Of a stretch of 64,000 nt of DNA, positions 2,078 through 60,179 are shown in pieces. Source of the DNA: a virus (taxonomy: Duplodnaviria; Caudoviricetes); IMG/VR virus record IMGVR_UViG_3300010352_001543. One strand, given 5' to 3'. The stretch's first letter is position 1; each line of letters starts with the position of its first letter. The notes below the pieces were generated by a model. It did no database searches, was not told the DNA's origin, and saw only the letters and a program-made list of their open reading frames with translations. Position numbers and translations under genes: made by a program.

Positions 2078-3193
2078 TTATGATAATGTTAATCGTGCAG
2101 TCGTAGCATCTATAGGCAACTGATTTGATATAGTTTCTATTTCATCCATTTGTGTCTGTACTTCTTTGGCTGTTTCAACTGCACAAGGACCACACCATCG
2201 CAGAATAACACTATGATTATATTTCGAAAATAAAGGTTGTCCATTATCATCAACCGCTCCAGCTGGCAGACCCAAATTATAGGGTTTAACAGGTGCGCTT
2301 AGACCAGCGATAGGATCACCGTTTACATCAACTGCTTGTGTATTCATAGCATCTATAGCATTAGCCGATAAAGATATTTTGAAATCCTGTCCCACTCCTG
2401 CATACTTAGTAGCTAAAACAGATCCAGAATATCCAAACTCAGCATCGTCTTTATCTATAGCTGAAACAGAACCATCATTATTCTCTTTTATTGGTGTTTT
2501 TGCCATTCTACCTACATACAAGGTTCCTGCTGCTGTTTCTACTATTCGAAGATTACCAATCCATGTTGGATTACTAGCATTATTGAAAATATCATCAGCG
2601 TCAGCACCTTCTGCCAACACATTGAATGCATCTAATAATTTTTGTGCTAAAATCTCTAATTGGTCACAAGGTATTAAATCTTGTGAACTTACCGCGGTAT
2701 TAAAGGCTTCAAGTGCTTCAGCCCATGCTTGCATAGGTTTACTTAAATCCACTAAGTCATTTGGTGTTAAACCAGGAGTTAAATCAGTTGCTTCTCCCCC
2801 ATTGACGCCAGGGTTGGTATCACCGTCACCGCTGTATAAATCTTTCAGTGATATATTTTGTGGAGTTAAATCACCGGTTGCGCCATAATTACTAAATTGT
2901 AAAGCAACTAAATCTGCAATAGTTTGATCTCCTAAATAACCTTCTAATAATCTTCTTTTTGTTTCCGCTGGTATCTCAAAAAAATCAGATTCCACAATAA
3001 GACCTACCGGAACATTACCGAACTTATTAACACCATTATCCACAGCGTATCCTGTTTTTTTACCTCTTGACTTTCCGCCACCGGGTGCAGTTATCACATC
3101 TTCGAACGCCATAATATCTTTCGCGGTTAATACATCATCTTCTAAGATACTTTTAAATGTAATATTAGCGCTATGTGTTCCATTACTAGCCAT
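2078..3193 (-). CDS. Putative virion structural protein
   Basis: 371 aa, acidic and G/A/D-rich, late-operon context. Confidence 0.6.
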   Translation of the reverse strand: MASNGTHSANITFKSILEDDVLTAKDIMAFEDVITAPGGGKSRGKKTGYAVDNGVNKFGNVPVGLIVESDFFEIPAETKRRLLEGYLGDQTIADLVALQFSNYGATGDLTPQNISLKDLYSGDGDTNPGVNGGEATDLTPGLTPNDLVDLSKPMQAWAEALEAFNTAVSSQDLIPCDQLEILAQKLLDAFNVLAEGADADDIFNNASNPTWIGNLRIVETAAGTLYVGRMAKTPIKENNDGSVSAIDKDDAEFGYSGSVLATKYAGVGQDFKISLSANAIDAMNTQAVDVNGDPIAGLSAPVKPYNLGLPAGAVDDNGQPLFSKYNHSVILRWCGPCAVETAKEVQTQMDEIETISNQLPIDATTARLTLS

Positions 3194-3210
3194 CTATAAA
3201 CCTCTTTATT

Positions 3211-3828
3211 TTATGTTAGTCTGTTTATTTGAATTCCTGGTAATGTATAATCACCATAGTAAGAATTCATATTATTATATATAAATTTTTGATAATTTTG
3301 GCAATCCGTATTCTCATCTTGCAAGTCATTGTTGAAACCGAACAGCTCCAACTCTATTAATTCCAGTAATTCCAAAACTGAAATATCAGATGTATGATAT
3401 ACTAACCTTAAAGAACCATCGATGTTATTTTTACTGTTTCTAGTGAAATATTCTCTTATAGCTCCAACCGGATTATTTTGATTTAATGTGTTATATCTTC
3501 CCAGCAAAACAAAATATAAATAAGTAGAATCCCTAAATATTTTCACATCATTATTAGTAAACAAATTGTCTAAATACTGTCCTATAGTTAATTGAATATT
3601 ATTCATGTCAATCACATCCACCGGATCCGTATTTAAATCTTCTTCGATAAGTATTGAATTTTCCACGGCTAATTCATTAATAATAGATAAGGTAACCGGT
3701 TCCAGTCCTTCATCAATAATATACTGCAATGGTGTCCGGAGAGCAAAATAATCCCAATTAGTATATGTGTAGTCTATACTATCTATTAATAAATTTTTTA
3801 ATGTGACTTTTCTTAATGCGTTTGCCAT
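3211..3828 (-). CDS. Putative virion protein
   Basis: N-terminus (LRKVTLKNLL...YTNWDYFALRTP) resembles the 3833..4396 product. Confidence 0.6.
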   Translation of the reverse strand: MANALRKVTLKNLLIDSIDYTYTNWDYFALRTPLQYIIDEGLEPVTLSIINELAVENSILIEEDLNTDPVDVIDMNNIQLTIGQYLDNLFTNNDVKIFRDSTYLYFVLLGRYNTLNQNNPVGAIREYFTRNSKNNIDGSLRLVYHTSDISVLELLELIELELFGFNNDLQDENTDCQNYQKFIYNNMNSYYGDYTLPGIQINRLT

Positions 3829-55621: not shown

Positions 55622-55822
55622 CTATTTCCTTTGATTGTTTTGATATAATGAGCAACTTTGTTCAGTCGCCTTTTGATTATTTAATTGTTCTGCAAGATAA
55701 ATTCTCAGTCCTTTTCGAACTGTATGAATTGTTTGTCTTCTTAAACATCCGTATTTAGAAGACGTTTCATTTTTAAAAATATTGTCACAACCAAGACAAA
55801 ATTGATCAGGATTTTTTACCAT
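55622..55822 (-). CDS. Small Cys-containing hypothetical protein
   Basis: CLGC...C...C. Confidence 0.45.
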   Translation of the reverse strand: MVKNPDQFCLGCDNIFKNETSSKYGCLRRQTIHTVRKGLRIYLAEQLNNQKATEQSCSLYQNNQRK

Positions 55823-56816
55823 ATAAAATATTGTCGCATATTATTGAAATAATTTCATTGATACTTTCTTGGTTTATATTTAAAACAAAATCTTGAAATG
55901 CTTCATGTGTAGAAAACATTTCTTTAAAATTATTTATGATCTTTCCTATGATAGCTCCTTCTTGAAGTCCGGTTACTTCCATGATGATTCGACCATTAAA
56001 CTTTTCAGCTACTGCTTTACTTCTTTCATATTTTGCTATCAATGTAGCCCACTTGGCTTCAACATATACTAACGGAAAATGTTTTTTACATAATTCAAAT
56101 ACTTTTTCTTTGCTTGGTTTTTCTATCTTAGCTGGAAACCTATCAACGTTTCTGTTCATCCAATCAACAAACAGATGATAATTGACTCTTAGATTATCTC
56201 GACGGTTCATTGCAGAATTCTGAAAACTTGGTTCAATGATACGGCGATTGAAAAATGGAGAAGTAGCACAAAATTCAAACACATCTTCCATTGTTTCAAA
56301 TCCTTGTAGCCACCGGTCAAAGTCCAGTCCTAAAACATTCATTGCTTGTCTTGGATCCTTTGTTAAAGCAATTTTACCAAGTTTATGACCGTCATAATGA
56401 ACTTTATAGTATAGACCATCGAACCCGAAGGTTAAGCCGATACACTTTGCTAACCTACCAACTATCAAACCAAAGTCATTGTAATTGTAGAATAGCTTAG
56501 TGAATTCAAATTCTTCCGGAGGAACCAGAATCAAATCAACTTGCAGATCATTGTAGTCAAATGAAACACAATTACTATTTGAATTTTTCTCAGTACATGT
56601 TATCATACTAAATATACCATCGAGCGTTTGTTTCCGGTCACCTGTTATTTCTACTAAGATATCCAAGTCCCCAAACGTTTCTTTTTGATTAAAAGATTTA
56701 ACCACATACACATTAGTTATTATTTCAAGTAGAGGAACTAACTCATTTACCACTTCTTCTATTTCTGCTTTGGAGTATCGTCGAGTATTGACTGTTTTAA
56801 GTGCTTTACCACCCAT
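55806..56816 (-). CDS. Pol-beta-superfamily nucleotidyltransferase
   Basis: MGGKAL, KETFGDLDILV (GDxD), QVDLI. Confidence 0.75.
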   Translation of the reverse strand: MGGKALKTVNTRRYSKAEIEEVVNELVPLLEIITNVYVVKSFNQKETFGDLDILVEITGDRKQTLDGIFSMITCTEKNSNSNCVSFDYNDLQVDLILVPPEEFEFTKLFYNYNDFGLIVGRLAKCIGLTFGFDGLYYKVHYDGHKLGKIALTKDPRQAMNVLGLDFDRWLQGFETMEDVFEFCATSPFFNRRIIEPSFQNSAMNRRDNLRVNYHLFVDWMNRNVDRFPAKIEKPSKEKVFELCKKHFPLVYVEAKWATLIAKYERSKAVAEKFNGRIIMEVTGLQEGAIIGKIINNFKEMFSTHEAFQDFVLNINQESINEIISIICDNILYGKKS

Positions 56817-58529: not shown

Positions 58530-59099
58530 TTAATAGCCGTATAAATTTCGAAAAAGTTGACTTTCTTTAAACTCAATTTTGATTTCTTTTAATACATGAA
58601 ACATATGTACATTCATCCAGTTTTCCATTGCATCAGCATCGCTACCATGAAGTCCTATCAATATTCCTGGTCGGTGAGAAGTAACCCTAACAATAAATCT
58701 GTCATCTAATTCAGCAACTTCAATATCAGTGACATTCAAAAACATAGTAGGATTTTTTGATTTTTCTGTGAAGTGACAATCTAAGAACTGTTTTAGAGTT
58801 TTACGGAATTCCTTATCATCTGTTCGATTGAGTTTTTTGTCTTGAAACAATTTTTCTTTACCGATAGTAATACAATCCAAACAAGTCCATTTTCCATCTC
58901 TGCGAGTTTCACCTCCGTCAATTTTCTTGAGTTCTCCACACACACATAAGCGAAAATTATATTGAAAACAATCTTTGTGATAATATTTGCCTTTATGTTC
59001 TGTCATTTCTAATCCTGTTGCGATTTCATATCCACAAACTTCACAATACATTGGCTCCTTTTCTGGACTTGTAATTCCTAATTCTTTTGCTGGTGGCAT
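58530..59099 (-). CDS. Zn-binding domain fused to a ribosomal protein uS3-like type II KH domain
   Basis: CEVCG...HKDC, CVCG...CLDC; VRVTSHRPGILIGLHG versus uS3 VTIHTARPGIVIGKKG. Confidence 0.7.
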   Translation of the reverse strand: MPPAKELGITSPEKEPMYCEVCGYEIATGLEMTEHKGKYYHKDCFQYNFRLCVCGELKKIDGGETRRDGKWTCLDCITIGKEKLFQDKKLNRTDDKEFRKTLKQFLDCHFTEKSKNPTMFLNVTDIEVAELDDRFIVRVTSHRPGILIGLHGSDADAMENWMNVHMFHVLKEIKIEFKESQLFRNLYGY

Positions 59100-59320: not shown

Positions 59321-59435
59321 TTTTTAATCCTAAAATTATTAGTGTTGTTATTTAATTTATATAGTATAGACGTCACTGATGGAATTTTATTGTAAATAAA
59401 AAGAAAGAATTTCAAAATAAATTGAAATTCTTTCT
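59321..59435 (-). promoter_or_regulatory. Terminator-promoter-RBS cassette, copy B
   Basis: Hairpin 59402..59435, TTTACAATAAAATTCC, CGTCTATAC, CTAATAATTTTAGGA. Confidence 0.82.
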
Positions 59436-59437
59436 GA

Positions 59438-59600
59438 TGATAGGAGCAGGATTCGAACCTACATGAAGCGTACCAAGTGGATGTTATGCCATCTCTTCAC
59501 TGTCAGGCCTCCGTTTTGCGTTCGGAGCCAAGCTCATCGCTGAATGCTTCTTAGTTATGAGCCATATATTAGCGTCTAAAACCAATTCCGCCATCCTATC
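59438..59600 (-). ncRNA. tRNA-like RNA (163 nt) with three hairpins in place of the anticodon/variable arms
   Basis: Acceptor GATAGGA/TCCTATC + A; D-arm GCG-GAATTGGTTTTAGA-CGC; T-arm GTAGG-TTCGAAT-CCTGC; ~109-nt structured insert. Confidence 0.8.
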
Positions 59601-59613
59601 AAAATATAATATT

Positions 59614-59949
59614 CTACTTTTTTAAATATTTTTTAATTGTCGCTAACATAACATAATCAGGAACAGCATATTCGAAATAACCATCCAAAGTATTACTTAA
59701 TTCGGAATAATCGGAGGTAGGACGATTATTTACAAAGTCTTTCTTTTTAGCTATAGCTAAAATTTCTGTAGCAACATTTTTAATATAATTTAGTTTATCT
59801 TGTACCGATTGTGAACGATCCATTAGTACAAGTTTACCACGTAAATCTTGTATATGATCCATGACATCAGAAGTTTTCTTATATCCTATATTAACAGCCA
59901 ATCCATTTTCGTTTAAAAATTCATTGCTTGTCATTACATATTTTTTCAT
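59614..59949 (-). CDS. Leader-tagged small protein in the early region, with its own late-type promoter
   Basis: MKKYVMTSNEFLNE leader; TAATATATA at 59976..59984. Confidence 0.7.
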   Translation of the reverse strand: MKKYVMTSNEFLNENGLAVNIGYKKTSDVMDHIQDLRGKLVLMDRSQSVQDKLNYIKNVATEILAIAKKKDFVNNRPTSDYSELSNTLDGYFEYAVPDYVMLATIKKYLKK

Positions 59950-59981
59950 AATTTCACTTTTTTTTTGTTATAGTTTATATA

Positions 59982-60179
59982 TTACTTATTTTGTATAAAA
60001 TCTATTTTAGGTGGTCCGGTCATAAAATCGTCATCTCTATTGTTACCACAAGTATTACCAGCAAAATATTCTTCAACTGTTCTTGGACCTCCGGTCGGAG
60101 ATAATATACCTTCGAATTCTTCCGGATGAGCTATCATGTCTTCCATGTAGTCTTTGTATGAATATGGCTCACCCTTCAT
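59982..60179 (-). CDS. Hypothetical protein
   Basis: 65-aa ORF. Confidence 0.5.
   Translation of the reverse strand: MKGEPYSYKDYMEDMIAHPEEFEGILSPTGGPRTVEEYFAGNTCGNNRDDDFMTGPPKIDFIQNK

What the first reader, a model, noticed from the sequence alone, without database searches (positions are those of the whole stretch)
59438..59600. tRNA-scaffolded RNA with three hairpins instead of an anticodon arm
Seen (minus strand): a perfect 7-bp acceptor stem, a Leu-like D-arm and discriminator A, and a canonical T-arm (GGTTCGAATCC). Between the D and T arms lie ~109 nt folding into three helices: GCTCAT/ATGAGC (59532..59562), GGCTCCG/CGGAGGCC (59506..59529) and AGTG-AAGA-GATG/CATCCACT (59476..59501). I cannot draw a 5-bp/7-nt anticodon arm, and the 3' end reads A-TCA rather than A-CCA. 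It follows the leader-tagged gene at 59614 and ends at a terminator, forming a late promoter-cargo-RNA-terminator island. Established: bacterial LeuRS relies on A73 and the tRNA elbow rather than the anticodon. Inference: a processed, possibly chargeable tRNA mimic (decoy for anticodon nucleases, ribosome/RelA modulator or stable ncRNA scaffold) rather than a decayed tRNA.
Basis: partly seen in the sequence, partly recalled or inferred. Interest (0 to 1): 0.7.

Follow-up and report, generated by a model that had tools for sequence, protein, structure and literature searches.

The report
Phage tRNA shell carrying variable cargo
This virus of bacteria makes an RNA with the outer shell of a transfer RNA but a folded insert in place of the part that reads the genetic code; the same shell turns up in phages with more than a hundred unrelated inserts, which points to a large, overlooked class of phage RNAs whose job is still unknown.

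Summary
The source is a T4-like phage, probably of Bacteroidota. A 90-nt paralog in the same genome differs by compensatory changes in the acceptor, D and T stems. Features I did not search for are conserved: U48 (101/103), a class II two-base linker, and U at -1. No deletion restores a cloverleaf, so it is not an intron. A73 and CCA are not conserved, so charging is unlikely to be the shared function. The closest known RNA is phage T5 RNA1 (GenBank: 'tRNA-like stable RNA with unknown functions'), which has the same shell and a covarying insert. It is built like YrlA Y RNA but fails the Y RNA tests. Best reading: the host processes and stabilises the shell, which carries an exchangeable, probably protein-binding module. 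The structure is shown by comparison; expression as a discrete RNA and the partner are not. No homolog of this particular insert was found.

The parts
59438..59600 (-). tRNA-shell RNA, 163 nt including discriminator A
59594..59600 (-). acceptor stem, 5' strand; U at -1 (59601), as in RNase P leaders
59572..59591 (-). class II (Leu-type) D arm: 3-bp stem, A14, A15, G18, G19
59463..59571 (-). 109-nt insert replacing the anticodon and variable arms; ends in U48 (59463); no homolog found
59531..59563 (-). insert helix 1 (outer pairs p 0.84-0.99)
59506..59529 (-). insert helix 2 (p 0.9-1.0 apart from one ambiguous pair)
59464..59505 (-). insert helix 3, in the variable-arm position; register uncertain
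59446..59462 (-). T arm, canonical loop
59438..59445 (-). acceptor 3' strand and discriminator A; no encoded CCA
59394..59435 (-). intrinsic terminator (14-bp stem and U tract); near copies recur in the genome, one behind the paralog
59340..59396 (-). repeated promoter-like unit (about 7 copies in the genome) in front of the next operon
59614..59949 (-). upstream 111-aa gene with an N-terminal tag shared by at least 15 genes; probable capsid-targeted internal protein (inference from T4, from memory); no family hit
59975..59982 (-). ATATATAA motif, putative late promoter of the island
59484..59594 (-). 36-codon ORF called by a gene finder inside the RNA; judged spurious

Best explanation
A non-coding phage RNA in which a class II tRNA shell (acceptor, D arm, U48, T arm) is a carrier. 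Step 1, shown by comparison: the shell folds like the tRNA elbow and is under selection. Step 2, inferred from the leader bases and the intact 7+5-bp branch: host RNase P and 3' trimming cut it out of the late transcript and leave a stable RNA of about 163 nt that cannot decode. Step 3, shown for relatives but not for this copy: the interior is a folded, selected module that differs between lineages and between copies in one genome. Step 4, inferred: the module binds a protein, most likely a host defence or RNA-metabolism factor, and acts as a decoy or tether, as the Ro-binding stem does in YrlA.
For: Paralog at G000:73146-73235 differs by compensatory pairs at 2:71, 11:24 and (with a G.C to A.U type change) 49:65, and has no anticodon arm. 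80/112 viral hits close a distant acceptor stem, against 7/120 bacterial-genome hits, two of them artefacts. Features not imposed by the search: U48 in 56/57 and 101/103; last helix ends 2 nt before the T stem in 24/57 against 6.4 shuffled; U at -1 in 34/56 against a 28% background. Inserts fold better than shuffles as a set (median z -0.84, p 3e-7). T5 RNA1 insert: 97% of cells paired, 7/20 pairs with changes on both sides, covariation 0.37 against 0.14 shuffled and at most 0.09 slid. Seven copies of one shell with different inserts beside 17 normal tRNAs, including a true Leu(TAA). The same insert occurs on different acceptor stems. A bacterial array of seven tRNA-like shells, several with the YrlA Ro motif in the insert, lies directly upstream of Ro60.
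Against: No homolog of this insert, so its own structure has no covariation test, and it is only weakly stable. No partner gene travels with the family and no motif is shared by the inserts. RNA data are contigs only, at low word depth (about 2), and do not show a discrete RNA. The D-loop and T-loop letters were imposed by my search. The ten T5-like sequences are related, which inflates covariation counts. T5-like phages tolerate large deletions in the tRNA region in the lab; I did not check that RNA1 lies inside them.
Confidence: 0.45

Rival explanations
1. The shell is the working part: an anticodon-less, uncleavable tRNA look-alike that titrates elbow- or acceptor-binding host factors (tRNA nucleases, sensors, synthetases). 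The insert need only be folded filler. It may be leucylated.
For: The shell is the only universal part and minimal forms exist (78 and 90 nt). T stem RCAGG in 43/57 against 2/121 tRNA-Leu suggests selection on the shell's sequence. Bacterial LeuRS needs A73 and core contacts, not the anticodon arm (PMC9976931). YrlA was proposed as a competitive inhibitor of a tRNA nuclease (PMC7790460). Phage tRNA regions counter tRNA-cutting defences (PMC11555353).
Against: It does not explain seven different inserts in one genome, nor invariant loop sequences in the T5 insert. A73, CCA and the acceptor sequence are not conserved. Rescue from retron Eco7 was lost when the tRNA's anticodon or stem-loop was changed.
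Confidence: 0.25
2. A processing signal: RNase P and 3' nucleases cut at the shell and so punctuate or stabilise the phage's polycistronic mRNA. The released RNA is a by-product.
For: RNase P-type leader bases. 30/56 members are followed by an ORF within 45 nt, against 57/282 normal phage tRNAs. Many lie alone between genes (49/84 loci hold no other tRNA).
Against: Here and in the paralog a terminator follows at once, so no downstream gene is released. The ORF comparison is confounded by tRNA clustering. A cut site needs no large covarying insert.
Confidence: 0.13
3. A decaying tRNA-Leu gene that was hit by an insertion.
For: Leu-type D arm; no encoded CCA; insert without homologs and only weakly stable.
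Against: All shell pairs are intact, with compensatory changes against the paralog. No remnant of an anticodon stem (best 3/5 pairs). T stem unlike tRNA-Leu. T5 RNA1 is kept in at least 424 phage records with covariation.
Confidence: 0.07
4. A tRNA with an intron that is spliced out, like the Lak phage tRNA 'introns'.
For: The nearest capsid relatives include Lak phages, which have oversized tRNAs. The genome has an RNA ligase (PF09414).
Against: No single deletion gives a canonical anticodon arm; 2/57 members do, against 0.8 by chance. The same test recovers 2 of 3 Lak intron tRNAs. No joint skipping the insert in three RNA runs (weak).
Confidence: 0.03
5. A small protein gene (36 aa) or a tmRNA-like tag reading frame.
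For: A gene caller predicts a 36-aa ORF from the ATG at shell positions 7-9.
Against: Family ORF lengths equal those of shuffled inserts (median 16 against 15). Indels among close copies break frame. No tmRNA is called and there is no G3.U70 pair.
Confidence: 0.03

Closest known systems
Phage T5 RNA1 (NC_005859:30501-30644; GenBank note 'tRNA-like stable RNA with unknown functions'); also T5 RNA2
   Same: RNA1 has the same Leu-type D arm, U48, two-base linker, T arm and acceptor helix, a folded insert in place of the anticodon loop, and no CCA.
   Different: Unrelated insert sequence. T5 keeps a 5-bp stem at positions 27-31 and a separate variable arm and has a frayed acceptor end. The target has a perfect acceptor with A73, no stem at 27-31, and lies outside any tRNA cluster. 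RNA2 has a different D region.
Phage T4 species 1 RNA (rnaC)
   Same: Stable late RNA of 139 nt, function unknown, ending in a T arm and an acceptor-like helix (PMC9697503).
   Different: No Leu-type D arm; imperfect acceptor; no sequence likeness.
YrlA bacterial Y RNA (RF02553; PMC4201824)
   Same: A tRNA elbow with a non-decoding, protein-binding module; substrate of tRNA-modifying enzymes, RNase P and the CCA enzyme.
   Different: In YrlA the RNA's ends lie in the Ro-binding stem; it carries GNCGAAN0-1G and lies within 4 kb of Ro60. The target has native tRNA ends, lacks the motif and has no Ro60 in the record.
Lak megaphage tRNAs with 'enigmatic introns' (PMC6784885)
   Same: Oversized tRNA genes of 150-190 nt in related Bacteroidota phages.
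   Different: They keep both halves of a normal anticodon arm and an anticodon; the target does not.
allo-tRNAs and irregular tRNAs (PMC5389517)
   Same: Non-canonical tRNAs, some with extra stems and no role in translation.
   Different: 8/4 or 9/3 acceptor branch and an anticodon; the target is 7/5 without one.
Engineered tRNA scaffolds for RNA expression (from memory, not checked)
   Same: Cargo placed in the anticodon arm is processed and protected by the host.
   Different: Artificial; this is a natural counterpart on a class II shell.

Membership tests
T5 RNA1-type tRNA-like stable RNA (no formal family definition) | Class II D arm, U48, T arm and acceptor helix around a non-anticodon insert | tested here: met
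T5 RNA1-type tRNA-like stable RNA (no formal family definition) | Sequence homology of the insert to T5 RNA1 | tested here: not met
T5 RNA1-type tRNA-like stable RNA (no formal family definition) | Accumulates as a discrete stable RNA | tested here: inconclusive
   contigs only, low depth; cannot show ends or level
tRNA-Leu (RF00005) | 5-bp stem, 7-nt loop, U33 and a Leu anticodon | tested here: not met
tRNA-Leu (RF00005) | A73, A15:U48, G18 G19, 7/5 acceptor branch | tested here: met
   identity elements from PMC9976931
tRNA-Leu (RF00005) | CCA addition and leucylation | not testable with these tools
   CCA is not encoded; no CCA-enzyme gene in the 71%-complete record
YrlA Y RNA (RF02553) | GNCGAAN0-1G motif | tested here: not met
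   absent from the target; 3/103 inserts against 3.9 shuffled
YrlA Y RNA (RF02553) | Ro60 gene within 4 kb | tested here: not met
   none in G000; 1 of 30 family phages has one, far from the element
YrlA Y RNA (RF02553) | Rfam model match | tested here: not met
Intron-containing tRNA (Lak type) | Removing the insert restores a cloverleaf | tested here: not met
   positive control
tmRNA | G3.U70, stemless D loop, tag reading frame | tested here: not met
   pair 3:70 is U-A, a D stem is present, no tmRNA call
allo-tRNA / tRNA-Sec | 8/4 or 9/3 acceptor branch | tested here: not met
   7/5 (PMC5389517)

The most novel reading that the evidence does not exclude
Phages use a class II tRNA shell as a general, recombinable cassette for a repertoire of RNA aptamers or decoys, each aimed at a different host defence or RNA-binding protein: an RNA counterpart of anti-defence gene islands. 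This would also explain the long-unassigned T5 RNA1 and perhaps T4 species 1 RNA.
Probability: 0.3. Interest if true: 0.9.

Novelty: new variant of a known kind. Interest (0 to 1): 0.7.

Why it matters
The stable tRNA-like RNAs of T4 and T5 have been annotated as 'unknown function' for decades. This finding places T5 RNA1 in a large phage class with one shell and many inserts, which ARAGORN misses and Rfam either misses or labels weakly as tRNA. The shell-versus-insert question can be tested at once in T5 and E. coli. If the inserts are protein-binding modules, they are an unmined set of natural RNA anti-defence factors and natural stable RNA scaffolds. I found no description of the class in the searchable literature (10 searches), but most subscription journals and the older T5 papers are not held, so prior description cannot be excluded.

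Tried and rejected
Homologs of the exact element: none in viral contigs, metagenome contigs or GenBank phages; three motif hits were chance; the only other assembly is identical over 2.8 kb. Jumbo phages reached through a neighbouring gene gave no match to the shell pattern, nor did two of three capsid relatives, while Lak-A1 gave only a normal tRNA-Leu. RNA contigs of two runs stop 30 nt inside the paralog; this fits an assembly fork caused by another organism's copy, so it was not taken as an RNA end. Low-share groundwater runs were not used as evidence. Antisense or derivation from the own genome: longest shared word 12 nt, as in shuffles. Hammerhead core: none in 103 inserts. A recalled link between T4 TifA and rnaC was not borne out. 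No consistent partner gene. A weak RelA_SpoT hit on the upstream protein (E 0.019, below cut-off) was dismissed. Two papers I wanted (Wang 2005 on the T5 genome; Burroughs and Aravind 2016 on bacterial Y RNAs) are not held. No covariance model of the whole RNA was built, because the inserts do not align.

Full report
1. Observation. On the minus strand, 59600..59438 reads as a 7-bp acceptor stem, a Leu-type D arm, a 109-nt insert, a canonical T arm and discriminator A followed by TCA. ARAGORN finds no tRNA in the window and Rfam nothing at gathering score; only the T arm scores, weakly. A 14-bp terminator follows at once. A generic detector of the shell finds two sites in the genome and none in 40 shuffled genomes.

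2. Source and context. The window lies in a 161.6-kb phage record, 71% complete, from activated sludge. It has a T4-type capsid gene whose nearest named relatives are Lak (Prevotella) phages, with Tenacibaculum and Chryseobacterium phages also among the hits, so a Bacteroidota host is likely (inference). The record has no normal tRNA; ARAGORN's only call is the paralog. The paralog (G000:73146-73235, 90 nt, outside the window) has the same shell, no anticodon arm and a plain variable arm. Against the target it shows compensatory changes at acceptor pair 2:71 and D pair 11:24, and a pairing-preserving change at T pair 49:65. Both copies lie just behind a gene with a shared N-terminal tag and just ahead of the same repeated terminator-promoter unit. 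The motif ATATATAA precedes 5/15 tagged genes against 7/217 others. That the tag targets proteins to the capsid and the promoter is late is inferred from T4, from memory.

3. A family. In 80 of 112 stretches the distant T arm closes an acceptor stem with the D arm's 5' flank; in bacterial genomes only 7 of 120 did, two being artefacts, the rest being tandem tRNAs. One of the bacterial hits lies among phage-like genes. With two more patterns the lower-bound census is 142 distinct RNAs of 74-196 nt in 103 unrelated insert clusters. The D-loop and T-loop letters were imposed by the search, so only unconstrained traits count. U48, the partner of A15, is kept in 56/57 and 101/103. The last insert helix ends exactly 2 nt before the T stem in 24/57, against 6.4 in shuffles, as in class II tRNAs. 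U at -1 occurs in 34/56 against 28% background, as in phage tRNAs. The family is not simply damaged tRNA-Leu: T stem RCAGG occurs in 43/57 against 2/121 true Leu tRNAs, A73 in 42/57 against 121/121, and encoded CCA in 2/57 against 64/121 Leu and 105/289 phage tRNAs.

4. The inserts. They are folded as a set (median z -0.84, p 3e-7), share no motif, ribozyme core or reading frame, and cannot be removed to give a cloverleaf, whereas 2 of 3 Lak intron tRNAs pass the same test (PMC6784885). They are modular. One 170-kb phage has seven copies of a single shell, with identical 3' ends and different inserts (78-148 nt), among 17 normal tRNAs that include a true Leu(TAA). Conversely, near-identical inserts sit on different acceptor stems with A or U as discriminator. 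No homolog of the target's own insert was found.

5. Known relatives. GenBank annotates T5 RNA1 as a 'tRNA-like stable RNA with unknown functions'; it has the same shell. It is kept in at least 424 T5-like records, and its insert helices covary: 97% paired, 7 of 20 pairs changed on both sides, score 0.37 against 0.14 shuffled and at most 0.09 slid (related sequences, so not a probability). It lacks CCA and has a U.U first pair, although all 25 T5 tRNAs encode CCA, which argues against charging as the shared role. T4 rnaC is a looser analogue, a late RNA of unknown function. YrlA Y RNAs join a tRNA elbow to a Ro60-binding stem and are handled by RNase P and the CCA enzyme (PMC4201824). The phage family fails the Y RNA tests: motif in 3/103 against 3.9 by chance, Ro60 in 1 of 30 phages and far from the element. 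One bacterial hit is telling: seven tRNA-like shells with native ends lie directly upstream of Ro60, and several inserts carry the Ro motif. That shows the design 'tRNA shell plus protein-binding insert' is plausible in nature, though binding was not tested.

6. Expression. Three sludge metatranscriptomes hold this phage. The bin with the element is covered at word depth of about 2 and no joint skips the insert, but contigs cannot show ends, strand or level, and DNA carry-over is possible. Expression as a discrete RNA is not shown.

7. Mechanism. Shown by comparison: a selected tRNA shell; no anticodon arm; no splicing solution; exchangeable, folded inserts, selected in relatives. Inferred: excision by host RNase P and 3' trimming into a stable RNA; binding of a protein by the insert; a role against host defence or in host RNA metabolism, by analogy with YrlA and with the anti-defence role of phage tRNA regions (PMC11555353). 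I put about 0.88 on 'real, unspliced, selected tRNA-like RNA of the T5 RNA1 design', 0.45 on the carrier-and-cargo mechanism, 0.25 on a shell-only decoy, 0.13 on an mRNA processing signal, and 0.13 on decay, intron or small ORF together.

8. Verdict. A new variant of a known but never-defined kind. The design has a named precedent in T5, but the breadth of the class, the multi-copy cassette behaviour and the shell's signature were not found in Rfam or in ten literature searches, which miss most subscription journals. Interest 0.7: it makes an old open question testable in T5, while this copy's own insert and partner remain unproven.

Noticed in passing
G000:C1:73146-73235 (L114:3147-3236), outside the window: 90-nt paralog without an anticodon arm, miscalled tRNA-Ala by ARAGORN. 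An RNA run holds a contig under 90% alike over this stretch with other flanks, so probably another organism's copy.
   Followed up: partly
L236:3766-5108, minus strand; Ro60 at 2088-3725: Array of seven tRNA-like RNAs with native ends upstream of a Ro60 gene in a bacterial genome. The inserts share a CCTTGCC ... GGCCGAA stem, which looks like a Y RNA with the reverse topology of YrlA; Rfam calls five of them tRNA, not YrlA. May be known from a paper I could not read.
   Followed up: partly
L288, L330, L359, L286, L343 and others: Phage tRNAs with G73, a very long variable arm (up to 107 nt in all), often CCA, and an anticodon loop CTGTTTA (GTT anticodon, U at 37): Ser-like bodies with an Asn anticodon, possible missense tRNAs.
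   Followed up: no
L005, L050, L095, L059, L027, L041, L113: Inserts that contain a second T arm or a nested tRNA-like element (3/57 against 0.15 shuffled), recalling the nested Lak introns.
   Followed up: partly
L029, L046, L068, L112: A lone T-arm hairpin starts 5 nt after the shell's discriminator in four unrelated phages.
   Followed up: no
L274:10473-10534 and L025:576-626: freshwater-1 RNA (just under gathering score) and DUF2693-FD RNA lie near shells; a GGAAAGAC hairpin often ends just upstream, suggesting islands of phage non-coding RNAs.
   Followed up: no
window 59340-59435 and G000 25952, 38652, 50083, 63643, 72333, 73278, 76445: Repeated terminator and promoter-like unit; could serve recombination between gene cassettes.
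   Followed up: partly
window 59614-59949 and 14 or more other genes: Shared N-terminal tag of the form M-K-x-x-x-x-x-x-E-F-L-N-E, like T4 capsid-targeting leaders (from memory).
   Followed up: partly
window 55806-56816 and 58530-59099: A 336-aa protein with a nucleotidyltransferase-like motif (PHROG 'DNA polymerase' hit, no Pfam hit) and a 189-aa Cys-rich protein with a weak KH-domain hit lie downstream; a link to RNA handling was not tested.
   Followed up: no
L116 (T5 tRNA region): T5 annotates eight stable RNAs of unknown function, several closed by acceptor-like helices.
   Followed up: partly
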